Positions 28,749 to 44,342 of a DNA stretch of 44,342 nt are shown in pieces. The stretch covers positions 1-44,342 of the IMG/VR virus record IMGVR_UViG_2547132254_000004, one strand, 5' to 3'. Both the position numbers and the translations under genes were made by a program. The stretch's first letter is position 1. Each line of letters begins with the position of its first letter. Below the pieces are notes generated by a model that made no database searches, was not told where the DNA came from, and saw only the letters and a list, made by a program, of their open reading frames with translations. The stretch comes from a virus. Its lineage: Duplodnaviria > Heunggongvirae > Uroviricota > Caudoviricetes.

Positions 28749-28792
28749 GCAACAGTTGCGATATAGATACAAGTAATAATCGTGATGTGCCA

Positions 28793-29156: not shown

Positions 29157-29513
29157 CACAAGTATACTTACAACCCCCTCTATAAAACCGATTGCGGTTT
29201 GCAACTCCTTCCTAATAGTGCCATCAGAGCACCTTCTCCTTTTGGCAATAGTGCGTAATGAGATACCAATAACAAAGTGGGCTATGATGAGCTCATATTC
29301 CTCTGGTTTATACTTTCTCAACCGAGCCACACAACTGTCTATCATAATGCCTTCGTCATCATCACACTGAATCCGTGACTTTTTGCCATGAGGTAAAAGC
29401 CCCTTGAAGCCTGCTGCTACCGGCTGCCAGTCCACACCACTGTTGTCTGCTGCAGCCCATGCTCCCCAGCGGTCCAATACTTCATACATATCACGCATCA
29501 ACTTACCCCACAA
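29154..29513 (-). CDS. Late-gene antitermination protein Q-like
   Basis: 119 aa at the end of the early-right operon upstream of the lysis genes; sequence compatible with the phage-82-type Q family by recollection. Confidence 0.6.
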   Translation of the reverse strand: MWGKLMRDMYEVLDRWGAWAAADNSGVDWQPVAAGFKGLLPHGKKSRIQCDDDEGIMIDSCVARLRKYKPEEYELIIAHFVIGISLRTIAKRRRCSDGTIRKELQTAIGFIEGVVSILV

Positions 29514-29516
29514 AAA

Positions 29517-30512: not shown

Positions 30513-30513
30513 C

Positions 30514-31356
30514 TCAATGTACGGTATCGAGCAGCTTTAACAGCTCAGGGAATCGGGATTCGAAGAAATGCGGCTGCGTCTCGCGCGGATTTGCGGGACT
30601 GGTGATGTTCTTGCCGAACATGCAGCCTTTCGCTGTCAGTGACCAGAATTTTTTGATGTTGTTAATCGCGGTACGGCTGTATCGTTCGCGCTGCTCGACG
30701 ATCCCCAGCTTCACCATCTGGTGATATGCCTGATTAGCTGTCAGGCGGATACCATACTGCTTCAGCAATGCACTCAGTGACAGCGTGGGGCGGCTTGAGC
30801 CATCAGGCGCGTCAGCAGGAGCATCAATGGCATAGCGCGGTGCCAGATTCGGTAAGCCAACAGCCTCCTGGAGTTTCTGACAGGCCCCAAGCACTGAAGA
30901 GTTAGACAGGTTTAACTCCCTGCGCATAAAGTCCAGCAGAATCACTCCAGCCTGCATCTTGTCAGCAGCCTGCCCGGATAATTTTTCCGGTGCGCTGGTT
31001 ACCATATCGAAAGTACGGATCACCTTCAGATGGAATGACGGGCTGATCCACATTGCATAGGCATACACCAGTTCCTTGCAGACATAAGTTCCCCGTTCAT
31101 TTCCCCCATGAATCACACTCACCGGGTCAACACCCAAATTCTGGGTGTTGGTCAATTCATGAACAAGTTCAACAGTTTGTTGGCTGGAAAGAAACTTTCC
31201 TGGCTCCTTGGTTCTGGCATTTGCACCAGATGCTACTGCTGCGCGATGCAGATCGTTCAGGCTGTAACGCCCATAAGCATCACGACGAACTTCAATACCA
31301 TCAATGACCATCAGATTATTCATACTTCGTTTCTCCTTTTGCTCAGGCAGCTGCAC
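30514..31356 (-). CDS. KilA-N domain protein (antirepressor-like)
   Basis: 280 aa; N-terminal MNNLMVIDGIEVRRDAYGRYSLNDLHRAA fits KilA-N/APSES-type domains. Confidence 0.55.
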   Translation of the reverse strand: MQLPEQKEKRSMNNLMVIDGIEVRRDAYGRYSLNDLHRAAVASGANARTKEPGKFLSSQQTVELVHELTNTQNLGVDPVSVIHGGNERGTYVCKELVYAYAMWISPSFHLKVIRTFDMVTSAPEKLSGQAADKMQAGVILLDFMRRELNLSNSSVLGACQKLQEAVGLPNLAPRYAIDAPADAPDGSSRPTLSLSALLKQYGIRLTANQAYHQMVKLGIVEQRERYSRTAINNIKKFWSLTAKGCMFGKNITSPANPRETQPHFFESRFPELLKLLDTVH

Positions 31357-31732
31357 CCGCCGTTTTCTCGTACTTACTGATAGTGATCTCGACCTTCCCT
31401 TCCGGGATAACCGGTCCCCACTCCACCAGCATTCTTTTCACCTGACTGTCGTCTTCCCACACCCCCGCGTGGGTCAGGGCGTCAAACAGCGCCTTGTTAT
31501 AGTTGTCCAGATCGCGGATCCGGTTATCCGGAGGAAACAACACGATCTCCACTGAAGCAGGTGCCGACGTTGGTTTCGGCAGACGACGTAGCTGCTCAAC
31601 TATTGCTGCGCACGCCGCACTCTGGAATTTTCGCCCCGCCGCGCTTATCAGGCTCTTACCAGCAAACGCCCCTTTGTTGGGGTGTCGCCAGTACGTGTTC
31701 ACGCTGGGCGGAAAAGGCAGAATCAGCTTCAT
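31343..31732 (-). CDS. rusA: Holliday junction resolvase RusA
   Basis: 129 aa with LPFPPSVNTYWRH and RIRDLDNYNKALFDALTHAGVWEDDSQV, matching the RusA pattern. Confidence 0.85.
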   Translation of the reverse strand: MKLILPFPPSVNTYWRHPNKGAFAGKSLISAAGRKFQSAACAAIVEQLRRLPKPTSAPASVEIVLFPPDNRIRDLDNYNKALFDALTHAGVWEDDSQVKRMLVEWGPVIPEGKVEITISKYEKTAGAAA

Positions 31733-32088
31733 ACTTTCAGGCCCCTCTCATGTAACCAGTGGGCTGCACGCAGCCTGGCGTTTTCCTCACCGGCAAGCAG
31801 TGAGCGGATAATCCCGACCGCCTCGCTGTCGTCGTCCTTCACCGCGGTATGAAGCGTTATCCCCCGGGCCACGCCACGCTTTATCGTGATGACGCCTTTT
31901 TTCTCCAGTGCGCGAAGATGCTCTACCGCTGCATTCACTGAACGGTATCCCAGCATGGTTGCCACCTCCTGATTGGTTGGCGGAAAGCCACGCTCTTTCT
32001 GATAAGAAATCAGCATATCCAGCACCTGCTGCTGGCATTGAGTTAACGTCGTCATTACGCCCCCACGTAATTCCCTGACAGATACCAC
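31729..32088 (-). CDS. LexA-N-like winged-helix DNA-binding protein
   Basis: 119 aa; TQCQQQVLDMLISYQKERGFPPTNQEVATMLGYRSVNAAVEHLRALEKKGVI resembles the LexA N-terminal domain; no peptidase domain. Confidence 0.5.
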   Translation of the reverse strand: MVSVRELRGGVMTTLTQCQQQVLDMLISYQKERGFPPTNQEVATMLGYRSVNAAVEHLRALEKKGVITIKRGVARGITLHTAVKDDDSEAVGIIRSLLAGEENARLRAAHWLHERGLKV

Positions 32089-32549
32089 TCATCACTCGAT
32101 ACAGCGCGCTTGCTGCTTTTCCGTAAACACTGCTCACGACGCGCCAGAAAATTGTTTCGTTCTGGCTGGGAGTGGCTTTCACGGAATGCCGCCATCCACA
32201 CCGTTGCAGCACGACGGTATAAGCCCCTGGACTCCAGTTCTTCAGCCTGGCGGGTCAGGCACAAAATCTCCCGCGGGTCGTTAGTGCCGACATAGAAATT
32301 GCGCACAGGTCTGGTTTCACGAACTGGTTGCGGTTCCGCCTCCTGCGCTCTCTCAGTCAGGCGCGGGAAATGTCTGCGTGTATCCCCTTCACAACGGTGA
32401 GCCACACGCCCACTCTGACGTAACTTGCTTGCTGACTGCAGAACGCGCTGCCGTGAGTAACCTGCAAAAGCATCCGCAATGTCTCCGGAAGTACACCCCG
32501 GATGGGCTTCAATGTATTTCTGAACTTCATTCAAAAGACTCATGATCAC
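32055..32549 (-). CDS. PerC-family-like transcriptional regulator
   Basis: 164 aa; C-terminal LESRGLYRRAATVWMAAF matches the recalled PerC/Pch signature; N-terminal helix-turn-helix-like region. Confidence 0.45.
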   Translation of the reverse strand: MIMSLLNEVQKYIEAHPGCTSGDIADAFAGYSRQRVLQSASKLRQSGRVAHRCEGDTRRHFPRLTERAQEAEPQPVRETRPVRNFYVGTNDPREILCLTRQAEELESRGLYRRAATVWMAAFRESHSQPERNNFLARREQCLRKSSKRAVSSDEWYLSGNYVGA

Positions 32550-33487
32550 CCCCTGAATCCTGCCGGGATCTGGCTGTAGTCCACGTTGTCGTAACTGGCT
32601 TTGAAGTACGGGTCTTCGCGTTTTTCTGTGTACGTGCTGACGGACGGCGATAAGCGCAGGGAAAGCTCATCCCATTTTTCCCGCAGCTTCGACGGGCTGA
32701 GCACGTTACGGCACCAGAACGGATCGCGGCTGACGCGGCTGTACATCTCGCAGATTTGTTTGTGAGTACGACCATCCTGCACACACATCAGGCGAATTTC
32801 GTTTGCCCAGGCTGTCCAGTTCGGTTCTTTGGGACGAACCACCTCGCCGTCACATTCGGCGGCCAGCTCGTACAGGGCGATGATTTTTTTCCAGAGCCAC
32901 TGTGCGCAGGTCAAATCATCCTGCGTTCCCCACTGGCGCTTTTTAGGGCTGAATACAACCGCATCAGGATGGCGAGTTAAAAACTCCTGTTCAGCCGTCT
33001 GCGTGTCCGGTTGCGAAGCGTCCGGACGAGAAGTTTTTTTATCTGACGGATCATGTTTTGATTTTACTGACGGATCCCCGCCAGATTCTGACGGGTGAAA
33101 ACCCGCTTTTTTGCCAGATTTCGACGCATCAAATTTTGACGGGTCAGATTTTGATGCGTCAGATTTTGACGGGTCAGAATCTGACAATTGAGAAAATGCC
33201 GCTGCCTGAAGCTTCGCAACGTTAAGCTGATAAACATTCGACGCATTGCGGTTACCCTGGCGACGCGCCTTACGCGTTAACCAGCCTTCTGCTTCCAGCC
33301 GTGCGATAGCCGTTCTGACGGTACTCATCCCCGCGCCAATCTGACGGGCAATGGTTTCAATTGATGGCCAGCACACACCTTCGTCATTACTGAAATCAGC
33401 CAGGCGGGCCATAATTGCCACGCTGGATAATTTCATGCCTGACGCAGCGCAACCATCCCATACATAGCCGGTTAATTTAGTGCTCAT
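32546..33487 (-). CDS. Replication initiation protein (N-terminal wHTH; contains the iteron array)
   Basis: 313 aa; N-terminal HTH-like SVAIMARLADFSNDEGVCWPSIETIARQIGAGMSTVRTAIARLEAEGWL; internal SKSD peptide repeats coincide with 15-bp DNA repeats. Confidence 0.6.
   Translation of the reverse strand: MSTKLTGYVWDGCAASGMKLSSVAIMARLADFSNDEGVCWPSIETIARQIGAGMSTVRTAIARLEAEGWLTRKARRQGNRNASNVYQLNVAKLQAAAFSQLSDSDPSKSDASKSDPSKFDASKSGKKAGFHPSESGGDPSVKSKHDPSDKKTSRPDASQPDTQTAEQEFLTRHPDAVVFSPKKRQWGTQDDLTCAQWLWKKIIALYELAAECDGEVVRPKEPNWTAWANEIRLMCVQDGRTHKQICEMYSRVSRDPFWCRNVLSPSKLREKWDELSLRLSPSVSTYTEKREDPYFKASYDNVDYSQIPAGFRG
33040..33190. repeat. Iteron-like direct repeats (putative replication origin) inside the initiator gene
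   Basis: About 8 copies of a TCTGACGG(A/G)TC-centred unit; the last five (AGATTTTGACGGGTC / AGATTTTGATGCGTC) are spaced exactly 15 bp apart. Confidence 0.6.
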
Positions 33488-33496
33488 GACCGACCT

Positions 33497-33835
33497 CTAT
33501 TTCCCTGAATTTACGACGAAACTGTTCGAGCGGACTGAAGCATTCATGCTCATAGCCTTCGCGGAGGTAGATAACCCGTTGTGTTTCCGGCTCCCAACGA
33601 ATGACTCTGACGGGTACTCCGTAGTGATCTTTGAACCAGCGGTTAACTTGTCGCAAAGGACTGTCTCCTTTTGCCGGTTAAAATCACCCACAGCCCACTC
33701 TGCAAAGCTGTGGGTTACAATTACCCTGCCACCTGGTACATTTACTGCATAGCAATACTCCACCTTCGCTTTTCCACCCGGTACAGGAAGCGCAATCAGT
33801 TGCGAGCGACGGTAGTGTGTTGTTAAACTGTTCAT
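33497..33835 (-). CDS. Hypothetical protein between the cII-like and replication genes
   Basis: 112-aa track ORF in operon orientation; no recognisable motif. Confidence 0.3.
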
Positions 33836-34383
33836 GCGTTAGTTTCTCCACAGTCACGACACGCCACGGCGCCCGGAGCTGCACACTCGCGGGCGTCATT
33901 ACTTTCTGAAATGCAAAAAATTTTGTAGACCAGTGCTGCATGCTCCTGCAGCTTCGAAATTGAGAGGTACAGCTCGTCGTTAATTGCTGTCTTCTCATGC
34001 GGTTCCACTACACCGTCTTCAATTGCTGAACGAATCTGTTTTGAATAACTGCCGATCTGTTCAATGACCTCCAGCAGGCGTTGGTTGATATCGGCGTTGT
34101 CCACATCCTCGACATCAGGAAGAGACACAAAGACGCCATTTGCAGACTGCGCCACAGCGTCAGCAATGAAGTGAGTTCCACCAGCACGTTGCAAAATCAT
34201 TGCCCATCCCAGCGGGAAAATCTGATCGCCATCGGCACGAAGGCGGTTAAATAATGCGTTCTCTGTTACATCCAGCCAGTCAGCAGCTTCAGCGTACCCC
34301 CCCGGCAACGCTGCGATAGTTTTTCTGACAGCTTTCACGTACCACTCAGGCTGTTTTTCTACTTTCCAGTGATGCTTACCCAC
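33832..34383 (-). CDS. CII-like regulatory protein (CP76-type)
   Basis: 183 aa directly downstream of cro in the rightward operon; family assignment from recollection. Confidence 0.5.
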
Positions 34384-34636
34384 GGTTCACCTCCTGTTCC
34401 TGTGGTTTAAACCCATTCTGGTTTTGGCTAGATTGAAAACGTGCCGGATAAAGAATCTGCATTTCGCTGACTTCACCCTTAAAAAAATTGGCTAAACGTT
34501 CTGCAAGCTCGATAGATGGAATCTGCTCCAGCCTCTCAATACGACTCAACGTCGCTGGATTGACTTGAACACCCGCAGCAACATGCTGCAAAGTGAAACC
34601 ATGCGCCTTACGCACATTTCGTAATGGTGATTGCAT
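34376..34636 (-). CDS. Cro-like HTH (XRE family) repressor
   Basis: 86 aa with HTH HGFTLQHVAAGVQVNPATLSRIE; divergent from cI across an operator-containing spacer. Confidence 0.7.
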   Translation of the reverse strand: MQSPLRNVRKAHGFTLQHVAAGVQVNPATLSRIERLEQIPSIELAERLANFFKGEVSEMQILYPARFQSSQNQNGFKPQEQEVNRG

Positions 34637-34733
34637 ATGCCCTCCAAATATTGCGCGTTATGCATGTTATTTCACGCAATTATTTTGCGCAAGTTGATTT
34701 GCTTATCACGCAATAAAGAAATGTAATAAACGC
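34637..34733. promoter_or_regulatory. Right operator/promoter region with TTGC-N7-GCAA palindromes
   Basis: Palindromic 15-mers TTGCGCGTTATGCAT (34651-34665) and TTGCTTATCACGCAA (34699-34713), plus TTGCGCAA (34685-34692), between divergent cro and cI. Confidence 0.5.
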
Positions 34734-35426
34734 ATGAACATAGGAAACCGAGTCAGACAACTTCGCCAAGCGAAGAACATGAAAATCGCCGATCTCGCTG
34801 AAGCGATAGGAGTAGATGCGGCGAACATCTCGCGCTTAGAAACGGGTAAGCAAAAACAATTTACCGAACAAACACTGAGTAATATTGCCAAGAGCTTAGG
34901 TGTTGATATTGCTGATCTCTTTACCTCTGCCCACAAAAGTAATACTGTATATAAAAACAGTAATAATGAGGATGTTGCGCAGGTGAAGGATGTGTTCCGT
35001 ATTGAAATGCTGGATATCAGTGCCAGTGCGGGAAATGGCCTTATCCAGGGCGGTGATGTCATTGATGTGATTCATGCCATCGAATACAGAACTGATAATG
35101 CTGTATCAATGTTCGGCGGACGACCAGCCAATCACATCAAAGTTATCAACGTTCGTGGGGACAGTATGTGTCCAACCATTGAGCCAGGAGATCTCATCTT
35201 CGTTGATGTCAGCATCAATCAGTTTGATGGTGATGGTATATATGTCTTTGGTTTTGATGACAAAATATACGTTAAAAGACTTCAAATGATTCCTGACAAA
35301 CTGCTGGTGATTTCTGATAACCAGATTTACCGTGAATGGGGAATTACTAGCGAAAACGAACACCGATTCATGGTCTTTGGAAAGGTCTTAATCAGTCAGT
35401 CGCAAACCCTTAAGAGACATAATTAA
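34734..35426 (+). CDS. CI-type prophage repressor (XRE HTH plus S24/LexA-like peptidase domain)
   Basis: 230 aa; N-terminal HTH RVRQLRQAKNMKIADLAEAIGVDAANISRLETGK; C-terminal S24-like region (GDSMCPTIEPGDLIFVD ... VKRL). Confidence 0.85.
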   Translation: MNIGNRVRQLRQAKNMKIADLAEAIGVDAANISRLETGKQKQFTEQTLSNIAKSLGVDIADLFTSAHKSNTVYKNSNNEDVAQVKDVFRIEMLDISASAGNGLIQGGDVIDVIHAIEYRTDNAVSMFGGRPANHIKVINVRGDSMCPTIEPGDLIFVDVSINQFDGDGIYVFGFDDKIYVKRLQMIPDKLLVISDNQIYREWGITSENEHRFMVFGKVLISQSQTLKRHN

Positions 35427-35445
35427 CCTCAATATCCCATCCATC

Positions 35446-35469
35446 GGCCACCGAAAGGTGGCTTTTTAT
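35446..35469 (+). terminator. Rho-independent terminator after cI
   Basis: GCCACC-GAAA-GGTGGC followed by TTTTTATT, 20 nt after the cI stop. Confidence 0.55.
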
Positions 35470-35480
35470 TACCTATAAAT

Positions 35481-35517
35481 TTGCATATCTCGCAAACATC
35501 ACTTGCATATCTCGCAA
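35481..35517. promoter_or_regulatory. Left-operator-like pair of identical palindromes TTGCATATCTCGCAA
   Basis: Two identical copies (35481-35495, 35503-35517), same TTGC-N7-GCAA architecture as the cro/cI sites, upstream of the early-left genes. Confidence 0.45.
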
Positions 35518-35702
35518 TTTAATTTTATCTTTTGTTCCAGACCAACTACAGGATTACAACAAAATCTGGTTGCAACACGGTGCATGTGTCGTAAGCAGTC
35601 AGTAAATGTCAAAAACGAACAGGCAGGACGCCCACGAAGTAGCCGCCGGTGGCGTATGAATGACCGGATGATTCGTTAAATACTATGTGTAAGAGAGCGC
35701 AA

Positions 35703-35906
35703 ATGAACCGTTATTTCACATGCTCGTTTTGTGGCGCAAACGAGCTGCAGGCAAAAAAAATCATCGCCAAAGGCGGAAAAGATGAAGTTGCTATCTGCTC
35801 TGAGTGCGTAGTCTTGTGTGTCGGGGCATTAATCAATAGCAGCACAACTATTCGGTTCACACCAAATGAGAATGCGCCTTTAGATGCGCGGAAATCTGGA
35901 GGTTAA
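35703..35906 (+). CDS. Small ClpX-type C4 zinc-finger-like protein
   Basis: 67 aa from ATG 35703 (MNRYFTCSFCGANELQAKKIIAKGGKDEVAICSECVVLCV...); CSFCG...ICSECV spacing resembles the ClpX N-terminal zinc-binding domain; AAGAGAG RBS. Confidence 0.45.
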   Translation: MNRYFTCSFCGANELQAKKIIAKGGKDEVAICSECVVLCVGALINSSTTIRFTPNENAPLDARKSGG

Positions 35907-35914
35907 AGAACAAA

Positions 35915-36190
35915 ATGAAAGTCCAGATTTTAAACAATAGTGGTGAAGTCGTTTGGTCATACGACATAGCCGCTCCTGTAGATCAGAGCGGCGATAGCTG
36001 GACCAATGGGAAACATCAGATTATGGCTGGAGTTGTATTCTCTTTACGCCGTGCTTTGGAACAGGCTGAAGTCTTTCCATCAGACCCTGAATGGAAATGG
36101 CCTTTTTCTATTTGTCCAAATTCGGAGAGTACATTTCAGAAAATTGGTCAGAAAGTCGCACTCGAAGAGCATCAGCCAACTGTTTCCTGA
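35915..36190 (+). CDS. Hypothetical early-left protein
   Basis: 91-aa ATG ORF; 3' end overlaps a convergent minus-strand ORF, so one of the two may be spurious. Confidence 0.3.
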   Translation: MKVQILNNSGEVVWSYDIAAPVDQSGDSWTNGKHQIMAGVVFSLRRALEQAEVFPSDPEWKWPFSICPNSESTFQKIGQKVALEEHQPTVS

Positions 36191-36353
36191 TTTTTTCAGG
36201 TAACTCGTCGGCATCGCAGAAACAACAACGCTCGATCATGTTGAAAGCCGATTCGTAGAACTGTTTCTGCTGAGTGTCGCTGAGACAGGAAAAGAGCGAC
36301 GTTACGATGATTTTATTAATTGCATTATCAAGTTCTTTTTCATCAAAAGTCAT
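36108..36353 (-). CDS. Hypothetical small acidic protein, antisense to the early-left operon
   Basis: 81 aa with ATG start and AAGGA RBS; helical/acidic composition. Confidence 0.35.
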   Translation of the reverse strand: MTFDEKELDNAINKIIVTSLFSCLSDTQQKQFYESAFNMIERCCFCDADELPEKIRKQLADALRVRLSDQFSEMYSPNLDK

Positions 36354-36790
36354 TTGATTTTCCTTTTATGTATACGGGCTTAAAAGGATACCACCGAGCC
36401 TGAAGTGGTGAAAAGACAGGCACATAACAGCTAAGTATTTTCAACCAGAGAGAATCCTTAGCGTTGTGGTGAATGCGGCTCAGCGCACGCGGGTTAAGGT
36501 TGAGGCTGACAGTCGACCTTCTGTGGATACCCACCCGCCTGGTGTGCAACCTTCGCCAGGCACCGGGAGGCACCCGGCACCACAACTTTATGCTGTGTGT
36601 AGTCCTGGCGGTACCAGTTTGTACCCTTGCTTCCGGCTGGTACCGCTCTTTTTACAAAACAGAGAAGAGCATCACCGGACGACGGGCTCATAACCCAATC
36701 CATCCGGGCGGCTGCCACCGCAGGTGTTCTTCTCTGTTTTGTGGAGAAACTAATCGGCCTTGCAGGGTCGATATGATGAGGAGCAGCAAA

Positions 36791-37153
36791 ATGGCTAGCG
36801 AACGCAGTACTGATGTGCAGGCATTTATCGGGGAGCTGGACGGCGGCGTATTTGAAACCAAAATCGGCGCAGTTCTCAGTGAAGTCGCTTCCGGTGTGAT
36901 GAACACGAAAACCAAAGGGAAGGTCTCACTCAATCTGGAAATCGAACCGTTTGATGAGAACCGTGTGAAAATCAAACACAAACTCTCATATGTTCGCCCG
37001 ACTAACCGCGGGAAAATTTCCGAAGAAGACACCACCGAAACGCCGATGTATGTCAATCGCGGTGGTCGCCTGACTATTCTGCAGGAAGACCAGGGACAAT
37101 TACTGACTCTTGCCGGTGAACCTGACGGAAAACTCCGCGCAGCAGGTCGTTAA
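36791..37153 (+). CDS. yfdP: YfdP-like prophage protein
   Basis: 120 aa from ATG 36791 (MASERSTDVQAF...) with GAGGAG RBS; size and position before the yfdQ-like gene match CPS-53 as I recall it; the longer track ORF from 36473 is judged an artefact. Confidence 0.5.
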   Translation: MASERSTDVQAFIGELDGGVFETKIGAVLSEVASGVMNTKTKGKVSLNLEIEPFDENRVKIKHKLSYVRPTNRGKISEEDTTETPMYVNRGGRLTILQEDQGQLLTLAGEPDGKLRAAGR

Positions 37154-37218
37154 TATCGTTCTTAATAAACTGATTATTTATCTCATCACTGAATATCTTT
37201 ATATAGTGAGGACTTATT

Positions 37219-38043
37219 ATGTCTCAGAACTTAGACGCAACCGCAATTAATCAAATCCATGCCCTTATTTCTGCTCAGGGTGTTAATGAAATTATCAGTA
37301 AGATTGGTGCCGATGCTGTGGCATTGCCTGAGAATTACCGCATTCATGATCTGGAAAAATTTAATTTAAATCGTTTCCGTTTCCGTGGTGCGCTTTCCAC
37401 TGCCAGCATCGATGACTTTACCCGTTATTCTAAAGATCTTGCAGATGAAGGCACCCGCTGCTTTATCGATGCCGATAATATGCGTGCCGTCAGTGTGCTT
37501 AACCTGGGTACTATTGATGAGCCAGGTCACGCAGATAACACTGCCACTCTCAAACTGAAAAAGACAGCACCGTTCTCTGCTCTGTTGTCTGTTAACGGCG
37601 AGCGTAACTCCCAGAAGTCACTGGCAGAATGGATCGAAGACTGGGCCGACTACCTTGTGGGCTTTGATGCTAATGGTGATGCCATTCAGGCAACAAAAGC
37701 GGCTGCGGCAGTCCGTAAAATCACGATTGAAGCAAACCAGACTGCTGATTTTGAAGATAATGACTTCAGCGGCAAACGCTCCCTGATGGAGTCTGTCGAA
37801 GCGAAGACCAAAGACATTATGCCAGTGGCATTTGAGTTTAAATGCGTTCCGTTTGAAGGTCTGAAAGAACGTCCGTTTAAATTACGCCTCAGCATTATCA
37901 CTGGCGATCGTCCGGTACTGGTTCTGCGCATTATTCAGCTGGAAGCGGTGCAGGAAGATATGGCTAACGAATTTCGTGATCTGCTTGTTGAGAAATTCAA
38001 GGACAGCAAAGTAGAAACCTTTATTGGGACTTTCACCGCCTGA
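37219..38043 (+). CDS. yfdQ: YfdQ-like prophage protein (DUF2303-type)
   Basis: 274 aa with GAGGA RBS; length and N-terminus match my recollection of CPS-53 YfdQ. Confidence 0.55.
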
Positions 38044-38334
38044 TTTCATTACTGCAAATGCCCCTGCGGGGGCATTTATGGAAACGTAATTGACTCAATA
38101 ATCGCCTGAAGGCGAGGGTTTTCTTTAACCAAAATTCAGCGCGGTGCAGCGCATATAACGTGGAGAACAAAATGTCATTTATTAAAACTTTTTCCGGGAA
38201 GCATTTTTATTATGACAGGATAAATAAAGACAACATCGATATTAACGATATCGCGGTTTCCCTTTCAAATATCTGTCGCTTTGCCGGCCATCTTTCACAC
38301 TTCTACAGCGTCGCCCAACATGCGGTGCTTTGCA

Positions 38335-39663
38335 CTGATGAATCCCCTAATGATTTTGGTAAAAATCATTAAGTTAAGGTGGATACACATCTTGTCATAT
38401 GATCAAATGGTTTCGCGAAAAATCAATAATCAGACAACAAGATGTGCGAACTCGATATTTTACACGACTCTCTTTACCAATTCTGCCCCGAATTACACTT
38501 AAAACGACTCAACAGCTTAACGTTGGCTTGCCACGCATTACTTGACTGTAAAACTCTCACTCTTACCGAACTTGGCCGTAACCTGCCAACCAAAGCGAGA
38601 ACAAAACATAACATCAAACGAATCGACCGATTGTTAGGTAATCGTCACCTCCACAAAGAGCGACTCGCTGTATACCGTTGGCATGCTAGCTTTATCTGTT
38701 CGGGCAATACGATGCCCATTGTACTTGTTGACTGGTCTGATATTCGTGAGCAAAAACGACTTATGGTATTGCGAGCTTCAGTCGCACTACACGGTCGTTC
38801 TGTTACTCTTTATGAGAAAGCGTTCCCGCTTTCAGAGCAATGTTCAAAGAAAGCTCATGACCAATTTCTAGCCGACCTTGCGAGCATTCTACCGAGTAAC
38901 ACCACACCGCTCATTGTCAGTGATGCTGGCTTTAAAGTGCCATGGTATAAATCCGTTGAGAAGCTGGGTTGGTACTGGTTAAGTCGAGTAAGAGGAAAAG
39001 TACAATATGCAGACCTAGGAGCGGAAAACTGGAAACCTATCAGCAACTTACATGATATGTCATCTAGTCACTCAAAGACTTTAGGCTATAAGAGGCTGAC
39101 TAAAAGCAATCCAATCTCATGCCAAATTCTATTGTATAAATCTCGCTCTAAAGGCCGAAAAAATCAGCGCTCGACACGGACTCATTGTCACCACCCGTCA
39201 CCTAAAATCTACTCAGCGTCGGCAAAGGAGCCATGGGTTCTAGCAACTAACTTACCTGTTGAAATTCGAACACCCAAACAACTTGTTAATATCTATTCGA
39301 AGCGAATGCAGATTGAAGAAACCTTCCGAGACTTGAAAAGTCCTGCCTACGGACTAGGCCTACGCCATAGCCGAACGAGCAGCTCAGAGCGTTTTGATAT
39401 CATGCTGCTAATCGCCCTGATGCTTCAACTAACATGTTGGCTTGCGGGCGTTCATGCTCAGAAACAAGGTTGGGACAAGCACTTCCAGGCTAACACAGTC
39501 AGAAATCGAAACGTACTCTCAACAGTTCGCTTAGGCATGGAAGTTTTGCGGCATTCTGGCTACACAATAACAAGGGAAGACTTACTCGTGGCTGCAACCC
39601 TACTAGCTCAAAATTTATTCACACATGGTTACGCTTTGGGGAAATTATGAGGGGATCTCTCAG
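38335..39663 (+). mobile_element. IS10 (IS4 family), 1329 bp, flanked by 9-bp target duplication TGCTTTGCA
   Basis: Ends CTGATGAATCCCCTAATGATTTTGG... and ...GGGGATCTCTCAG match IS10 termini; identical TGCTTTGCA at 38326-38334 and 39664-39672. Confidence 0.95.
38442..39650 (+). CDS. IS10 transposase
   Basis: 402 aa (MCELDILHDSLYQFCPELHLKRLNSLTLACHALLDCKTLTL...) matching the IS10/Tn10 transposase. Confidence 0.95.
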   Translation: MCELDILHDSLYQFCPELHLKRLNSLTLACHALLDCKTLTLTELGRNLPTKARTKHNIKRIDRLLGNRHLHKERLAVYRWHASFICSGNTMPIVLVDWSDIREQKRLMVLRASVALHGRSVTLYEKAFPLSEQCSKKAHDQFLADLASILPSNTTPLIVSDAGFKVPWYKSVEKLGWYWLSRVRGKVQYADLGAENWKPISNLHDMSSSHSKTLGYKRLTKSNPISCQILLYKSRSKGRKNQRSTRTHCHHPSPKIYSASAKEPWVLATNLPVEIRTPKQLVNIYSKRMQIEETFRDLKSPAYGLGLRHSRTSSSERFDIMLLIALMLQLTCWLAGVHAQKQGWDKHFQANTVRNRNVLSTVRLGMEVLRHSGYTITREDLLVAATLLAQNLFTHGYALGKL

Positions 39664-40036
39664 TGCTTTGCAGCCAGCTGGTACCGCAGGAATTTGCTTT
39701 TGAAGCGTTAATGCATGATGCAACAGAAGCGTATTGCCAGGACATCCCGGCTCCACTGAAACGCCTTCTTCCTGACTATAAACGGATGGAAGAAAAAATA
39801 GACGCCGTAATCCGTGAGAAATACGGGTTACCCCCGGTTATGAGTACACCCGTGAAATATGCCGATCTCATCATGCTGGCAACCGAACGCCGCGATCTCG
39901 GGCTTGATGATGGCTCTTTCTGGCCTGTGCTGGAAGGTATCCCGGCAACAGAGATGTTCAACGTGATTCCACTGGCTCCAGGCCATGCCTACGGGATGTT
40001 TATGGAACGCTTTAACGAATTATCGGAGTTACGCAA

Positions 40037-40399
40037 ATGCGCATAAATGTTTTCGAAATGGAAGGGTTTCTTCGCGGGAAATGTGTACCGCAAGATCTGA
40101 AAGTGAACGAAACAAATGCTGAGTACCTGGTACGTAAATTCGACGCGCTTGAAGCTAAATGTGCGGCACTGGAAAGCAAAATAATACCAGTGTCAGCTGA
40201 ACTGCCACCAGCAAATGAAAGTGTTCTGTTATTTGATGCTAACGGAGAAGGCTGGCTGATTGGCTGGCGTTCTCTCTGGTACACCTGGGGACAAAAAGAA
40301 ACCGGAGAATGGCAGTGGACATTTCAGGTCGGGGACCTTGAAAACGTCAATATCACTCACTGGGCAGTAATGCCGAAAGCACCAGAGACTAAGAAATGA
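40037..40399 (+). CDS. yfdS: YfdS-like prophage protein
   Basis: 120 aa with ATG start and GGAG RBS, immediately after the yfdR-like gene. Confidence 0.45.
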   Translation: MRINVFEMEGFLRGKCVPQDLKVNETNAEYLVRKFDALEAKCAALESKIIPVSAELPPANESVLLFDANGEGWLIGWRSLWYTWGQKETGEWQWTFQVGDLENVNITHWAVMPKAPETKK

Positions 40400-40611
40400 G
40401 CGTGATAAAAACTCATACAGGAATTGTTATCACCCGAGACGGTGAAAAGCGGATGAAATTACATTCCACTGAAACGTCCTGGGTTGCCGGACGTTGTGAA
40501 TCCTACGACAAAAAGACTGGTTACCGTTGGGGGGCACCTAACATGCGTCGCCGTCTGCTACTGGACAGCATCAGGCCAATAAAACAGGTAGCAACCAGGG
40601 AACAAAATTAA
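40396..40611 (+). CDS. Small hypothetical protein (YfdT-position)
   Basis: 71 aa overlapping the upstream stop by 4 nt. Confidence 0.35.
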   Translation: MSVIKTHTGIVITRDGEKRMKLHSTETSWVAGRCESYDKKTGYRWGAPNMRRRLLLDSIRPIKQVATREQN

Positions 40612-40658
40612 TTATCAGGACTGGAATTTGATATTACTGCCCGTGTGCAGCGGGCTAA

Positions 40659-40877
40659 GTGGAGAAACATATGCTGAACCTCGATTGTGTTCCAATCTCA
40701 ACTTATTGCAAAGAAACTGGCGAAACTCCTGAAGCAATAAACAAACGTGTACAGCGCGGTGTTTGGCGTGAAGGTGTTCAGGTTTTAAAGGTTGAAGGCG
40801 TTAAGGAGAGGTGGATTGATCTTAGTGAGGTTGCAAAATGGGCCAGACAAAACTGCTCAAACTACCGCGCGGCGTAA
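40659..40877 (+). CDS. Excisionase-like protein
   Basis: 72 aa immediately upstream of and overlapping the integrase start. Confidence 0.5.
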   Translation: MEKHMLNLDCVPISTYCKETGETPEAINKRVQRGVWREGVQVLKVEGVKERWIDLSEVAKWARQNCSNYRAA

Positions 40878-42010
40878 CAATCAGGAAACACCGCCTGGGC
40901 GAAACGATCAATATAACTTTCACCTATAAAGGAGTTAAATGTCGTGAGCCTCTTTCCAATCTGGAAGTAATACCAAAGAACATAAAATACGCCGAGCGCA
41001 CACTCGGCGAAATTCATAATAAGATCGAAAGGGGAACATTCATTTATGCGGAATATTTTCCCCGTTCTGCTCGTTTGAAAATTTTTGGTAATGCTGCTGC
41101 AGGCAAAACGGTAAAAATGTACCTGGACGAATACCTTGAAATCTGCGAAACGAGAAAACTTTCACCCTCTACGATTGGTGGTTATAAAAAATGCCGTAGT
41201 GCGTTAGCCTCACTCCACATTTGCCCTGCAAGTGAATTAACACCAGCAATCCTGAAAGCGTGGATTCAAAGCCAGAAAACGACCTTAAAAACAATTCGCA
41301 ACCAGTTATCTTTCCTGCGGTCAGCACTTGATGAAGCCGTAACCGATGGGGTACTTCAAATTAACCCCGTATCGTTGGTAACTGCTTCGCGCTACCAAAG
41401 TGATAAGTCAGAAGCAGAAAGCAGCTACGTGGTTGATCCGCTATCACCAGCAGAAGTTGATGCATTACTAGCAGCAGCCGGAAACAAACAATGGGAAAAT
41501 CTGTTCCGGTTCGCTATACATACAGGCCTGCGTAGTTCTGAATTATGTGCCCTTCGATGGCGTGATATCGACTTTGTTGGAAAAACTGCCCATGTCCAGA
41601 GCGCAAGTGTTGTCGGTGTTATCAAAGGGACAAAGACAAAAGCAGGTACTCGGAAAGTTGAACTGACAGAAGAGGCAATGTTGGCGCTGATAAATCAGAA
41701 GCCATTTACATTCATGAAGGATGCTACTGTCTTTGAAGATCCAAAGACCAATAAGCCTTGGGCAAGTGCTGATGCAATTAGGAAAAAAGCATGGGTGCCA
41801 ACATTGCGAAAAGCAGGTATTCGTTACAGAAACCCATATCAAACCAGGCATACATTCGCCACCAGCCATATCAGCCGAGGAGCAAACCTGTTTTGGCTTG
41901 CAGCTCAAATGGGGCATAAAGGGCCGGAGATGCTTTTCAGGCACTATGGTTCGTATCTTAAAGAGTATGATAACTTTACATCGATAAATCATTTGCATAA
42001 TCATAATTAA
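40838..42010 (+). CDS. Tyrosine integrase (lambda Int family) of the lambdoid prophage
   Basis: 390 aa with ATG start; C-terminal catalytic region with RHTFATSHISRGANLFWLAAQMGHK...LFRHY; reads toward the ssrA-derived attachment core. Confidence 0.85.
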   Translation: MGQTKLLKLPRGVTIRKHRLGETINITFTYKGVKCREPLSNLEVIPKNIKYAERTLGEIHNKIERGTFIYAEYFPRSARLKIFGNAAAGKTVKMYLDEYLEICETRKLSPSTIGGYKKCRSALASLHICPASELTPAILKAWIQSQKTTLKTIRNQLSFLRSALDEAVTDGVLQINPVSLVTASRYQSDKSEAESSYVVDPLSPAEVDALLAAAGNKQWENLFRFAIHTGLRSSELCALRWRDIDFVGKTAHVQSASVVGVIKGTKTKAGTRKVELTEEAMLALINQKPFTFMKDATVFEDPKTNKPWASADAIRKKAWVPTLRKAGIRYRNPYQTRHTFATSHISRGANLFWLAAQMGHKGPEMLFRHYGSYLKEYDNFTSINHLHNHN

Positions 42011-42020
42011 TATTTAATAA

Positions 42021-42047
42021 TCCCCGCATTTTTAAAATCGGGGATTT
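42021..42047 (+). terminator. Hairpin after the integrase gene (weak terminator)
   Basis: TCCCCG-N12-CGGGGA followed by TTT. Confidence 0.35.
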
Positions 42048-42051
42048 AAAG

Positions 42052-42348
42052 TTGATTACAATTACATTCGACAAACTAATCACCTACATATCTTCAGTTG
42101 GTACTTTCATTTCAGCAATTGCTGCATTATATGCAATATGGTTAACGATATTTCAAAGAAGGCTCTCTTATAAACCCAATTTAGTGATAGACACTTTAAA
42201 TGTCAAGATGAATGTTAACGATTTCAACGGTTTTCATGTTGATATCTTACAAGCCCCTACGCTTCCACAAACAAAATTTTCAAACATAGGATTGGGGGCG
42301 GCAATTTCACTTAGATATCATTGGGATTTTAATTATAAAAAAACATAA
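42052..42348 (+). CDS. Hypothetical membrane protein (AT-rich cargo between int and att), possible 5' part of a frameshifted gene
   Basis: 98 aa from TTG; N-terminal TM helix YISSVGTFISAIAALYAIWLTIF; ends at an A7 run. Confidence 0.4.
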   Translation: MITITFDKLITYISSVGTFISAIAALYAIWLTIFQRRLSYKPNLVIDTLNVKMNVNDFNGFHVDILQAPTLPQTKFSNIGLGAAISLRYHWDFNYKKT

Positions 42349-42362
42349 ATCTATACTTAGAG

Positions 42363-42830
42363 TTGTTTTCGAAAAAATTCAAAAAAGAAGATAAATCTTT
42401 TACAACCGACTCCCAGTATGGAATGTTCAAAATAATAAAAGAAAGAAAAGTATATATGTACAATACTTTATCGACACCTTACGATATTGATTTTTCGTTA
42501 CCATATAGTATAGATAAGAAGTCAAAAAACATTTTTGTACCAACCGCGGCAATTGATATTCTATTGAATATAGCATATCTTTCACATAGACTTAAATTAG
42601 TCGGTTCTTCATCATTCACTGGTCCAAAATTAATTATTGAATATCAAGATATAGAGGGTAAAACTAAAAAAGTCACTTGGCAAACAAAATTGGAACGTGG
42701 AGTGGCACGTTTCAGTGGTGATAATATGGAGGCAGATTTTGCACTACGGTTTACACCTGTACCAGAGAAATGGACTACAAAAGGTCTAGAGAAGATACGC
42801 AAAAGCGCCGCAAACGCCATGTTCAGATAA
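42363..42830 (+). CDS. Hypothetical protein, possible 3' part of the same frameshifted gene
   Basis: 155 aa from TTG; frame is open from 42339; one extra A in the A7 run at 42337-42343 would fuse it to the upstream ORF. Confidence 0.4.
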   Translation: MFSKKFKKEDKSFTTDSQYGMFKIIKERKVYMYNTLSTPYDIDFSLPYSIDKKSKNIFVPTAAIDILLNIAYLSHRLKLVGSSSFTGPKLIIEYQDIEGKTKKVTWQTKLERGVARFSGDNMEADFALRFTPVPEKWTTKGLEKIRKSAANAMFR

Positions 42831-42867
42831 ATATATAATTAAAACAACAGGTTAATATTTTTCAGAC

Positions 42868-42895
42868 ACGGGTTCAACTCCCGCCAGCTCCACCA
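42868..42895 (+). other. ssrA: Prophage attachment core: 3'-terminal ~28 nt of ssrA (tmRNA) ending CCA
   Basis: ACGGGTTCAACTCCCGCCAGCTCCACCA matches the E. coli tmRNA 3' end as I recall it; sequence to the left is phage cargo, not the tmRNA body. Confidence 0.65.
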
Positions 42896-42942
42896 AAATT
42901 CTCCATCGGTGATTACCAGAGTCATCCGATGAAGTCCTAAGA

Positions 42943-42975
42943 GCCCGCACGGCGCAAGCCCTGCGGGCTTTTTTG
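42943..42975 (+). terminator. Rho-independent terminator (native ssrA terminator)
   Basis: GCCCGCA-N12-TGCGGGC followed by TTTTTT. Confidence 0.6.
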
Positions 42976-43028
42976 TGCCCTCAATTTGTCCCGCGAAGTC
43001 CGAAGAAAACTAATTAAATCCGATCCTT

Positions 43029-43082
43029 TTAGGCACCTTGTTAGGCACCTCATAAAGCTTTATTGTTTTTTGAGGTGCCTAA
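43029..43082. repeat. Three copies of TTAGGCACC (two direct, one inverted) upstream of the intA-like gene
   Basis: 43029-43037, 43041-43049 direct; 43074-43082 inverted (GGTGCCTAA); possible integrase arm-type or regulator binding sites. Confidence 0.4.
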
Positions 43083-43100
43083 AACTATGGAAACCCGGCA

Positions 43101-44342
43101 ATGGCAAGACAAACCAAACCTCTATCCGTTAAAGAAATAGAATCAGCCAAACCCAAGGAGGCGGACTACGTTCTCTATGATGGCGATGGCCTTGAGCTAC
43201 TCATTAAATCCAGCGGGAGTAAAATCTGGCAGTTTCGCTACATTCGCCCTGTCACCAAGAAACGAGCAAAGAAGAGCATAGGCTCCTACCCGTCAGTTAC
43301 CCTTGCCGATGCCAGAAACTACCGTGCAGAGTCCCGCTCACTACTGGCTAAACAGATCGATCCGCAGGAACATCAGCAAGAACAATTGCGCAGTTCGCTG
43401 GAAGCCAAAACCAACACTTTCCAACTCGTAGCTGAACGTTGGTGGAATGTGAAGAAAGCCAGTGTGACAGAGGACTATGCGGAAGATATCTGGCGCTCTC
43501 TTGAAAGAGACGTCTTTCCTGCGATTGGCGACGTTAGCGTTACAGATATTAAAGCTCATACACTGGTTCAGGCCGTACAACCGGTTCAGGCCAGAGGAGC
43601 ACTGGAAACTGTTCGTCGCCTGTGCCAACGTATTAATGAGGTCATGATCTATGCCCAGAACACAGGGCTGATTGATGCTGTTCCCAGCGTTAATATCGGT
43701 AAAGCCTTCGAGAAGCCTCAGAAAAAGAACATGCCCAGCATTCGACCGGATCAGCTACCTCAGTTAATGCAGACGATGCGAACAGCCAGCATTAGCCTTT
43801 CCACACGCTGCCTGTTCATGTGGCAACTTCTTACTATTACCCGCCCTGCCGAAGCGGCTGAAGCTCTCTGGGAAGAGGTAGACATAGAAGCGCGAGAGTG
43901 GAAGATTCCTGCAGCACGCATGAAAATGAACCGCGACCATACTGTTCCATTGTCAGATGAAGCAATTGCGATACTAGAGATGATGAAGCCGTTAAGTGGA
44001 AATCGAGAATTTATCTTTCCCAGCCGCATCAAGCCAAACCAGCCGATGAACAGTCAGACCGTAAACGCATCGCTAAAACGCGCAGGTTTTGGTGGGGTGC
44101 TCGTTTCACACGGCCTGCGATCTATCGCCAGTACAGCCCTTAATGAGCAGGGATTTCCACCTGATGTTATTGAGGCTGCACTTGCTCATGTGGATAAGAA
44201 TGAGGTTCGTCGTGCGTATAACCGTAGTGATTATCTTGAGCAGCGACGGCCTATGATGCAGTGGTGGGCTGATTTTGTGATGGCTGCAGATCACGGTAGT
44301 ATGATTGAAGGAGGGATAAAGGCAATGCGGTTAGTTGGATGA
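43101..44342 (+). CDS. intA: P4-family tyrosine integrase, CP4-57 IntA-like
   Basis: 413 aa (MARQTKPL...LYDGDGLELLIKSSGSKIWQFRY...), same length and position relative to ssrA as E. coli K-12 IntA; catalytic HGLRSIASTALNEQG...AHVDKNEVRRAYNRSDY. Confidence 0.85.
   Translation: MARQTKPLSVKEIESAKPKEADYVLYDGDGLELLIKSSGSKIWQFRYIRPVTKKRAKKSIGSYPSVTLADARNYRAESRSLLAKQIDPQEHQQEQLRSSLEAKTNTFQLVAERWWNVKKASVTEDYAEDIWRSLERDVFPAIGDVSVTDIKAHTLVQAVQPVQARGALETVRRLCQRINEVMIYAQNTGLIDAVPSVNIGKAFEKPQKKNMPSIRPDQLPQLMQTMRTASISLSTRCLFMWQLLTITRPAEAAEALWEEVDIEAREWKIPAARMKMNRDHTVPLSDEAIAILEMMKPLSGNREFIFPSRIKPNQPMNSQTVNASLKRAGFGGVLVSHGLRSIASTALNEQGFPPDVIEAALAHVDKNEVRRAYNRSDYLEQRRPMMQWWADFVMAADHGSMIEGGIKAMRLVG

What the first reader, a model, noticed from the sequence alone, without database searches (positions are those of the whole stretch)
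42868..43100. Tandem occupancy of the ssrA integration site: lambdoid prophage upstream of a CP4-57-type intA
The 28-nt ssrA 3' end with CCA, its native terminator and an intA-like gene 193 bp downstream reproduce the K-12 ssrA/CP4-57 junction, but the sequence left of the core is prophage DNA, not the tmRNA body. The lambdoid phage has therefore integrated into ssrA upstream of an existing CP4-57-like element and its integrase shares the same core. TTAGGCACC repeats before intA may be arm or regulator sites.
Basis: partly seen in the sequence, partly recalled or inferred. Interest (0 to 1): 0.5.

Follow-up and report, generated by a model that had tools for sequence, protein, structure and literature searches.

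The report
Prophage and island stacked at ssrA
This is the junction where a phiNP/SfV-type prophage ends in a displaced 36-base tail of the tmRNA gene (ssrA) and a CP4-57-type island begins: two mobile elements stacked at one known integration hotspot, an ordinary arrangement that has already been made in the laboratory.

Summary
Window 42860-42895 is the last 36 nt of ssrA with 2 mismatches. Of these, 27 nt are exact (42869-42895), not 28. There is no tmRNA body in the window. The next 110 nt, including the terminator hairpin, are identical to the K-12 ssrA-intA spacer. intA starts 205 nt after CCA, not 193. TTAGGCACC occurs three times, two direct and one inverted, and nowhere else in the window.

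The prophage integrase (40838-42010) is 92% identical to that of Citrobacter phage phiNP. phiNP is shown experimentally to integrate into this same 25-bp ssrA end in E. coli K-12, which already carries CP4-57. Near-identical relatives have a full ssrA at the other prophage end, 234 nt before window position 1. The phage also occurs alone at ssrA, and so does the island.

Corrections: the phage is SfV-like with a contractile tail, lambdoid only in gene order. The "native" terminator is island DNA. The order of arrival cannot be read from the structure.

The TTAGGCACC repeats are probably IntA arm-type sites overlapping the intA promoter. They co-vary with the integrase's arm-binding domain and recur on the island's far arm.

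This is already known biology and of low interest.

The parts
40671..40877 (+). Candidate excisionase (xis) of the prophage, overlapping the start of int
   Evidence: A 68-aa gene is called here in all related contigs. The gene in the equivalent position of phiNP is annotated xis. It has no Pfam hit, so the assignment rests on position only.
40838..42010 (+). Prophage tyrosine integrase, phiNP type, specific for ssrA
   Evidence: Pfam Arm-DNA-bind_2, Phage_int_SAM_5 and Phage_integrase. It is 92% identical to phiNP Int. An identical protein sits in 10 contexts, 9 of them shown followed by the same arm plus ssrA core; L022 printed no core line.
42052..42830 (+). AT-rich cargo gene (33% GC) between int and the att site, split here by a frameshift
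   Evidence: It is a single 259-aa ORF in T43 and L019-L028. The window has A7 instead of A8 near 42336. The truncated 98-aa product is also found in three independent read-set assemblies. No Pfam hit.
42829..42859 (+). Phage-side arm immediately left of the core
   Evidence: Different E. coli elements share only this roughly 20-30 nt plus the core ahead of the CP4-57-type spacer. It is identical in all contigs that carry the same Int.
42860..42895 (+). Displaced 3' fragment of ssrA, which is attR of the prophage and the left att core of the island. Exact identity covers 42869-42895, and the published phiNP 25-bp att site is 42871-42895.
   Evidence: The 25-bp attP/attB sequence is given in PMC6456863.
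42896..43026 (+). Island-borne spacer that follows ssrA in K-12-type genomes. It contains the terminator hairpin 42939-42972 and T-run to 42975.
   Evidence: The first 110 nt are identical to K-12. RefSeq counts this DNA as CP4-57. The flank after CCA changes with whichever element lies downstream.
43027..43084 (+). Three TTAGGCACC(T) repeats: 43029-43038 and 43041-43050 direct, 43073-43082 inverted. They are probably IntA arm-type sites. They bracket a -10-like TATTGT (43061-43066), and a -35-like TTGTTA lies at 43038-43043.
   Evidence: The arrangement is conserved in 80 Enterobacterales loci in two motif classes. The classes co-vary with IntA residues 4-74 only. The same motif recurs on the island's distal arm. 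The promoter hexamers were read from the sequence. The strict consensus scan found no promoter.
43101..44342 (+). intA, the P4/CP4-57-type tyrosine integrase of the downstream island. The window ends at its stop codon.
   Evidence: Pfam Arm-DNA-bind_3, Phage_int_M and Phage_integrase. It is 85% identical to K-12 IntA. It matches at 99.9% DNA identity, under the same RefSeq protein accession (WP_000113815.1) in T43 and O104:H4, in many E. coli where it directly follows a full ssrA.

Best explanation
Window 42860-43100 is a composite attachment junction in a tandem array at the tmRNA gene.

A roughly 43-kb temperate phage carries a phiNP-type tyrosine integrase and its own copy of the ssrA 3' end. 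The virion genes are SfV/SfII-like and the early genes are in lambda order. This phage recombined with the 3' end of ssrA. The crossover lay inside the 25-27 bp identity block, from the T-arm to CCA. As a result, the intact ssrA outside the window, about 234 nt before position 1, now ends in phage-supplied sequence with a phage-supplied terminator. The original 3' end, with whatever followed it, was displaced about 43 kb to the int-proximal prophage end.

What followed it here was a CP4-57-type island: its spacer, terminator, arm sites and intA. The island uses an unrelated P4-type integrase that targets the same end of ssrA. The fragment at 42860-42895 therefore serves as attR of the phage and as the left att core of the island.

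The three TTAGGCACC repeats are most likely arm-type binding sites for the N-terminal domain of IntA. They overlap the intA promoter, so IntA would both assemble its recombination complex there and regulate its own gene.

Shown: the sequences, the homologies, the separate occurrence of each element, and (in the literature) integration of the 92%-identical phiNP at this site in K-12. Inferred: the crossover position, the order of arrival (island first), IntA binding to the repeats, and present-day ability to excise.
For: Fragment and flanks.

No tmRNA gene in the window.

Full ssrA at the far end in relatives:
- L009, 0 mismatches over 4.2 kb.
- AR_0369.
- T43.

The phage Int is 92% identical to phiNP Int. 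The phiNP record carries the ssrA 3' end and a native-like downstream flank. phiNP integrates into the 25-bp ssrA end in E. coli K-12 and regenerates ssrA (PMC3072379, PMC6456863).

With an identical Int, the flank after CCA comes in three kinds:
- the native flank next to ypjA or csiD in phage-only lysogens;
- the CP4-57-type spacer and intA in the window, L023, L024 and T43;
- a third spacer with a 409-aa P4-type integrase in L025.

The same intA directly follows a full ssrA in many E. coli. It does so in 65 of 80 Enterobacterales species. Six species show the same order of phiNP-type int, ssrA fragment, then intA.

Repeats:
- three copies against 0.29 expected;
- two motif classes at fixed positions in 80 loci;
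- all 13 perfectly class-segregating IntA residues lie in aa 4-74;
- the matching motif is on the distal arm: type A in L094, type B in L099, and a diverged variant (GGACCA) in K-12.
Against: The source genome's own left junction was not retrieved. The full ssrA there is inferred from relatives.

The structure alone does not say which element arrived first.

No binding, excision or transcription data exist for this allele.

The co-variation between repeats and IntA residues 4-74 could partly reflect physical linkage, because the repeats lie within 75 nt of the codons. The match on the distal arm argues against linkage, but it rests on only a few loci.

The strict sigma-70 scan found no promoter upstream of intA.

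The prophage carries an IS10 and frameshifted cargo genes, so it may not be fully functional.
Confidence: 0.9

Rival explanations
1. Reverse order of arrival. The phage lysogenised an empty ssrA first. The IntA island later integrated into the displaced core copy at the phage's attR rather than into the functional gene.
For: Both orders give exactly the same sequence at 42860-43100. The displaced fragment keeps the whole 27-nt core that the island needs. Phage-only lysogens that could act as recipients exist.
Against: The identical intA allele directly follows a full ssrA in hundreds of E. coli genomes. The phage in front of it was seen in very few: T43 among the 5,426 complete genomes, plus the contigs L023 and L024. 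The laboratory precedent is phage into an island-bearing K-12 (PMC3072379). The fragment lacks the ssrA body sequences left of the core that may contribute to attB recognition.
Confidence: 0.12
2. The TTAGGCACC repeats are operators for another protein rather than arm-type sites of IntA. Candidates are an AlpA/Vis-like directionality factor or a repressor encoded by the island.
For: In K-12, AlpA induction drives CP4-57 excision (methods of PMC10107115). From my own knowledge, AlpA activates intA transcription. The repeats bracket a -10-like hexamer, which is a typical operator geometry (read from the sequence).
Against: The class-specific residues are confined to the Arm-DNA-bind_3 domain of IntA itself. 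The same motif recurs as a direct pair on the distal arm about 75 nt from the core. That is the classical P-arm/P'-arm layout and is not expected for a simple promoter operator. The two roles do not exclude each other.
Confidence: 0.15
3. The prophage and the intA island form one composite element, or the junction arose by homologous recombination or misassembly rather than by two site-specific integrations.
For: The window alone shows only one junction. IS10 and other IS elements are present nearby.
Against: Each element is found alone at ssrA with precise boundaries at CCA. The same junction occurs in independent complete genomes and in six other genera. L024 matches 7.5 kb across the junction with 0 mismatches.
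Confidence: 0.02

Closest known systems
Citrobacter rodentium phage phiNP and its lysogens of E. coli K-12 (Petty et al. 2011, PMC3072379; Magaziner et al. 2019, PMC6456863)
   Same: The integrase is 92% identical. The 25-bp att core, GGTTCAACTCCCGCCAGCTCCACCA at the ssrA 3' end, is the same. The virion has a contractile tail. The phage carries a native-like ssrA downstream flank with a terminator. A K-12 phiNP lysogen must have the same layout of ssrA, phage, core, then CP4-57 intA. That last point is inferred from the published site and the K-12 map.
   Different: Only the int region is phiNP-like at the DNA level (84% over int, nothing else in the 2.1-kb query). The structural genes are 97% SfII/SfI/SfIV/SfV-like. 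The cargo differs: an EcoRII-type restriction-modification pair and a 259-aa AT-rich gene here, against hicAB, an ATPase and a methylase in phiNP.
CP4-57 cryptic prophage of E. coli K-12 (ssrA-intA junction)
   Same: The first 110 nt after CCA are identical, including the terminator. The spacing from ssrA to intA is the same, 205 against 203 nt. IntA is 85% identical with the same three domains. The arrangement of two direct and one inverted repeat before intA is the same.
   Different: The repeat motif is GGCACC, not GGCCCA, and 13 residues in the arm-binding domain differ in a class-specific way. In relatives that carry this intA allele, the island's gene content is not that of CP4-57. Here the junction lacks the tmRNA body. 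The K-12 far end carries a damaged core (loss of T357), which explains why excision inactivates tmRNA (PMC10107115). That end lies outside this window.
[quoted passage not shown]
   Same: It is an array in which each member has its own integrase and its own displaced tDNA fragment. Unrelated integrase subfamilies converge on ssrA. The damaged-fragment phenomenon is also described (PMC4383910).
   Different: Nothing differs in kind. This is one more instance. The two-class arm-site analysis made here is a small addition that I did not find stated in the papers I could read.
Shigella flexneri serotype-converting phages SfV, SfII, SfI and SfIV
   Same: The head, tail and terminase module is 97% identical over about 17 kb. 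The overall organisation is lambda-like.
   Different: The integrase and att module differs. From my own knowledge, SfV-group phages use thrW. This phage uses ssrA through a phiNP-type Int. Near-identical virion and cargo DNA is also found joined to a dusA-type integrase as a 43.7-kb circle in strains AH02 and CT01.

Membership tests
phiNP-type ssrA-specific phage integration module | Tyrosine recombinase with an arm-binding N-terminal domain, closely related to phiNP Int | tested here: met
   Pfam PF12167 and PF00589. 92% identity over 386 aa.
phiNP-type ssrA-specific phage integration module | The 25-bp att core equals the 3' end of ssrA, at the int-proximal prophage end | tested here: met
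   Window 42871-42895 is the reverse complement of the published attP, TGGTGGAGCTGGCGGGAGTTGAACC (PMC6456863).
phiNP-type ssrA-specific phage integration module | A second core copy that completes an intact ssrA at the other prophage end | tested here: inconclusive
   It lies outside the window. It is present in L009 (0 mismatches to window 1-4208), AR_0369 and T43. The source genome's own left end was not obtained.
phiNP-type ssrA-specific phage integration module | Int/Xis-dependent integration and excision at this site | not testable with these tools
   This is known only for phiNP itself (PMC3072379, PMC6456863).
CP4-57 / P4-type IntA island | P4-subfamily integrase architecture with high identity to K-12 IntA | tested here: met
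   PF13356, PF22022 and PF00589. 85% identity over 413 aa.
CP4-57 / P4-type IntA island | int lies about 200 nt downstream of the ssrA 3' end, behind the island-borne spacer and terminator | tested here: met
   The gap is 205 nt. The first 110 nt are identical to K-12. The spacing is 182-207 nt in 80 loci.
CP4-57 / P4-type IntA island | CP4-57 gene content (alpA, yfj genes, rnlAB and others) and a distal att copy | not testable with these tools
   The window ends at the intA stop codon. In relatives with this intA allele, the island content differs from K-12 CP4-57, and in O104:H4 it is truncated by IS3. 'CP4-57-type' therefore applies to the integration module only.
Lambdoid phage | Lambda-like gene order: int-xis, early genes, repressor/cro, replication, Q, lysis, terminase, head, tail | tested here: met
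   Annotation of the 97-99% identical T43 prophage.
Lambdoid phage | Lambda-type non-contractile tail and virion genes | tested here: not met
   The phage has tail sheath, tail tube, Mu-like baseplate and DNA circularisation genes. It is 97% identical to the SfII/SfV myovirus module.
tmRNA gene (ssrA) | A complete tRNA-like domain plus the tag reading frame | tested here: not met
   ARAGORN finds none. Rfam tmRNA scores 23.6 bits against a gathering score of 47, and only the last roughly 36 nt align with confidence. This is a displaced fragment, not a gene.
Arm-type integrase binding sites (the TTAGGCACC repeats) | Repeated motif on both arms of attP, distinct from the core, matched to the integrase's N-terminal domain | tested here: met
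   Three copies lie on the int-proximal arm. Two copies lie on the distal arm of a type-A island (L094). The motif class tracks IntA residues 4-74 only.
Arm-type integrase binding sites (the TTAGGCACC repeats) | Physical binding by the integrase | not testable with these tools
   This needs gel-shift or footprinting experiments.

The most novel reading that the evidence does not exclude
IntA-family ssrA islands may fall into two orthogonal arm-site specificities, TTAGGCACC and TAGGCCCA. Each would be matched to a distinct version of the integrase's N-terminal domain, while the target core stays the same. Such orthogonality would let two IntA islands, or an island and a phage, stack at ssrA and still excise independently without cross-recombination. 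Because the sites overlap the intA promoter, each island would also have private autoregulation. One natural array, type A followed by type B in Citrobacter amalonaticus P55 (L038/L094), fits this idea. It is a single case.
Probability: 0.2. Interest if true: 0.35.

Novelty: already known. Interest (0 to 1): 0.12.

Why it matters
The finding matters mainly for correct annotation.

The 36-nt piece is a displaced ssrA fragment that marks the boundary between two independent mobile elements. The terminator that K-12 annotation treats as ssrA's own is island DNA. The functional ssrA of this strain now depends on phage-supplied 3' sequence and a phage-supplied terminator.

There is a practical consequence. 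Excision of the phage should restore the K-12-like junction with an intact tmRNA gene. Excision of a CP4-57-type island in K-12 is known to damage tmRNA by loss of T357. Which element moves therefore has different outcomes for ribosome rescue.

The arm-site analysis gives a cheap, testable prediction about IntA specificity classes. It does not open a major question.

Tried and rejected
1. Finding the source genome's own left end.
- Look-ups with the EcoRII-like protein and the 226-aa acyltransferase fragment gave close relatives but not the source contig.
- The look-up with the 98-aa frameshift product gave only short read-set contigs.
- AEZP02000004.1 (L024) matches the right 7.5 kb apart from one base. 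Its left part could not be fetched.

2. I first took ORF 1-1209 (402 aa) for a second IS10 transposase because it has the same length. It is an EcoRII-type endonuclease.

3. The 43.7-kb circular 'plasmid' of strain AH02 looked like a ready-made attP for this phage. It carries a dusA-type integrase instead, so it says nothing about the ssrA att site.

4. Williams 2002 and 2003 (PMC100330, PMC142792) are not held. Statements about them rest on citing papers and my own knowledge.

5. I looked for the distal end of this intA allele's island in O104:H4. It has been deleted by an IS3-associated event, so it is not informative.

6. The Rfam IsrM hit at 42886-42974 (32 bits against a gathering score of 376) covers only the terminator hairpin. 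I rejected it as a gene.

7. The strict promoter scan found nothing before intA. The proposed TTGTTA-17-TATTGT promoter matches only 8 of 12 consensus positions.

Full report
**1. What is in the sequence**

Window 42860-42895 reads TTTCAGACACGGGTTCAACTCCCGCCAGCTCCACCA. This is the last 36 nt of E. coli ssrA with two G>A mismatches, at 42864 and 42868. It is the only such match in the window, and none occurred in 100 shuffles. The exact block is 27 nt, 42869-42895.

No tmRNA or tRNA gene is detected anywhere in the window. A permissive Rfam scan aligns only this 3' end with high posterior probability, at 23.6 bits against a gathering score of 47. So this is a fragment, not a gene.

To the left lie prophage genes:
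- an AT-rich ORF at 42052-42830;
- a tyrosine integrase at 40838-42010;
- a small xis-like ORF before the integrase.

To the right, 110 nt are identical to the K-12 ssrA-intA spacer, including the hairpin at 42939-42972 and its T-run. Three TTAGGCACC copies follow. Then comes intA at 43101-44342, which is 85% identical to K-12 IntA. The gap from CCA to the ATG is 205 nt, not 193.

**2. Is it a tandem array at ssrA?**

The window starts at the ATG of the first prophage cargo gene, so the predicted full ssrA lies outside it. Three relatives were checked.
- L009 matches window 1-4208 with no mismatch. It has smpB and a 363-nt tmRNA gene ending 234 nt upstream of the position equivalent to window 1.
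- AR_0369 has the same arrangement at 99.9% identity.
- Strain T43 shares the right-hand junction at 100% identity. It shows smpB, ssrA, prophage, core, then intA.

A contig, L024 (AEZP02000004.1), matches window 36838-44342 with 0 mismatches and one 1-nt gap. It has the same IS10. I could not fetch its left end. The existence of ssrA upstream in the source itself is therefore a strong inference, not an observation.

**3. The two elements are independent**

An identical phage Int was found in ten contexts. Nine of them were shown followed by the same arm and core, and L022 printed no core line. What comes after CCA varies.
- In phage-only lysogens it is the native flank 'atcatgattgg...', followed by ypjA or csiD.
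- In the window, L023, L024 and T43 it is the CP4-57-type spacer and intA.
- In L025 it is a third spacer with a 409-aa P4-type integrase.

Conversely, the same intA allele directly follows a full ssrA in many E. coli. It does so in 65 of 80 Enterobacterales species representatives. Nine of those representatives have only a 35-45-nt ssrA fragment in front of intA. In six of the nine, a phiNP-type integrase (67-90% identical) sits immediately upstream. So the exact layout seen here recurs in Buttiauxella, Kosakonia, Trabulsiella, Citrobacter and Pseudocitrobacter.

Among 5,426 complete E. coli genomes, 13 have a non-ssrA arm joined to the core and the CP4-57-type spacer.

**4. Mechanism and precedent**

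The phage Int is 92% identical to that of Citrobacter phage phiNP. The phiNP record ends in the ssrA 3' end. After the core it carries a flank homologous to the native ssrA downstream region, with its own terminator.

The same kind of flank follows the full ssrA in AR_0369 and L009, with a strong terminator. It is also homologous to the K-12 chromosome beyond the far end of CP4-57. The phage therefore supplies both the 3' end of ssrA and a transcription terminator.

phiNP has been shown to excise, form virions and lysogenise E. coli K-12. It inserts into the 25-bp 3' end of ssrA and regenerates the gene (PMC3072379, PMC6456863). That 25-mer is window 42871-42895. K-12 carries CP4-57 next to ssrA. 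Those laboratory lysogens must therefore have the same architecture as this window.

The two integrases are unrelated at the BLASTP level (E = 0.63) and have different arm-binding domains. This is convergence of two subfamilies on one target, as the literature describes for the tmRNA hotspot (PMC10121019, PMC3603311, PMC4383910).

**5.

a. The phage is lambdoid only in gene order. Its virion module is 97% identical to the Shigella myoviruses SfII, SfI, SfIV and SfV.

b. The 'native' terminator belongs to the island. RefSeq places it inside CP4-57. Genomes without an island have a different flank after CCA.

c. The order of arrival cannot be read from the structure, because both orders give the same sequence. 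Island-first is favoured for two reasons. The island allele is common next to a full ssrA while the phage in front of it is rare. The laboratory precedent also runs that way.

d. 'Same core' is true for the overlapping ssrA segment. The K-12 far end of CP4-57, and the distal arms of IntA islands in three other genera, carry a conserved damaged version, TTCAGACTCCGCCAGCCCACCA. This fits the known loss of T357 on CP4-57 excision (PMC10107115). It also fits the 'damaged fragment' class in Islander (PMC4383910). The crossover points of both enzymes remain untested.

**6. The TTAGGCACC repeats**

In 80 loci the same layout is kept at a fixed distance from intA: two direct copies 12 nt apart and one inverted copy. 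It comes in two discrete motif classes, GGCACC in 48 loci and GGCCCA in 33. All three copies change together. Sequence between the copies drifts while the copies themselves stay constant.

Thirteen IntA alignment columns separate the two classes perfectly. All thirteen lie at residues 4-74, inside the Arm-DNA-bind_3 domain. None lies in the remaining 340 residues.

Physical linkage could contribute to this pattern. Against that, the distal arm of a type-A island (L094) carries two TTAGGCACC copies about 75 nt from the core. A type-B island (L099) carries two TAGGCCCA copies at the same place, and K-12 carries a variant. This is the classical two-arm layout of arm-type sites.

A -10-like hexamer (TATTGT, 43061-43066) lies between repeats 2 and 3 and is retained across the classes. 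A TTGTTA sits 17 nt upstream. These were read from the sequence, and the strict scan found no promoter.

My best reading is that these are IntA arm sites that double as an autoregulatory operator, as reported for P4 (own knowledge, not tested here).

**7. Verdict**

It is a textbook-type tandem array at a known hotspot. There is an experimental precedent and there are public genomes with the same junction. Interest is low. The only modest addition is the two-class arm-site and N-terminal-domain pattern of IntA islands.

Noticed in passing
window 38335-39663 (target duplications at 38326-38334 and 39664-39672): A complete IS10 (1329 bp) has inserted into the yfdR-like 5'-deoxynucleotidase gene of the prophage. 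It has a 402-aa transposase at 38442-39650 and an RNA-OUT Rfam hit at 38380-38449. It is flanked by a 9-bp duplication, TGCTTTGCA. The same insertion is in contig L024 but not in T43 or L023.
   Followed up: yes
window 1-2719: The first cargo genes next to the phage's ssrA-proximal end are an EcoRII-type restriction endonuclease (1-1209, PF09217 and PF09019) and a convergent Dcm-like cytosine methyltransferase (1244-2719). In other phages with the same neighbouring genes, this slot holds different defence genes such as GmrSD with HEPN, or HEPN RiboL-PSP. It looks like a variable defence-cargo slot.
   Followed up: partly
window 4405-5470: An Acyl_transf_3 acyltransferase gene, intact at 355 aa in AR_0369, is split into several ORFs here. 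The 226-aa C-terminal piece is identical in 62 other assembly blocks, so at least one of the disruptions is inherited and is not a sequencing error.
   Followed up: partly
window 42052-42830: A 33% GC gene of unknown function, with no Pfam hit, sits between int and the att core. It is frameshifted here (A8 to A7 near 42336). The truncated product is also found in three independent read-set assemblies.
   Followed up: partly
L006 (NZ_CP081704.1, 43.7-kb circular record of strain AH02); also CT01: A phage whose virion and cargo DNA is about 98% identical to window 1-24749 exists as a circular 43.7-kb molecule. It has a dusA-specific integrase module in place of the ssrA one. This is a clear case of integrase/att module swapping on one phage backbone.
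   Followed up: partly
window 42886-42974; L025 6060-6130: The spacer and terminator after the ssrA core give a weak partial hit to the Salmonella island sRNA IsrM (32 bits against a gathering score of 376). The hit covers only the terminator. The alternative spacer in L025 resembles the IsrM 3' end more closely by eye. IsrM may therefore derive from the equivalent spacer ahead of a P4-type integrase.
   Followed up: no
L005 22665-22686 (K-12 far end of CP4-57); L070, L094 and L099, about 1275-1345: The displaced core at the far end of IntA-type islands is the same damaged 22-mer, TTCAGACTCCGCCAGCCCACCA, in E. coli K-12, Citrobacter amalonaticus, Erwinia and Cedecea. The 'damage', including loss of T357, is therefore a conserved property of these islands and not random decay.
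   Followed up: partly
L001 (T43), locus 22183-42044: In strain T43 the DNA beyond intA runs through a second tyrosine recombinase gene, IS3 and IS5 copies, and then dgcT-like and pgaA genes. Those genes map about 1.1 Mb from the origin in K-12, which suggests a large rearrangement with an end point in the ssrA island.
   Followed up: no
L086 (Pseudescherichia MAG), upstream of intA: The ssrA copy in front of intA appears to have an internal deletion. Only positions 1-51 and 312-363 align, and they are contiguous. This could be a real deletion or a metagenome-assembly artefact.
   Followed up: no
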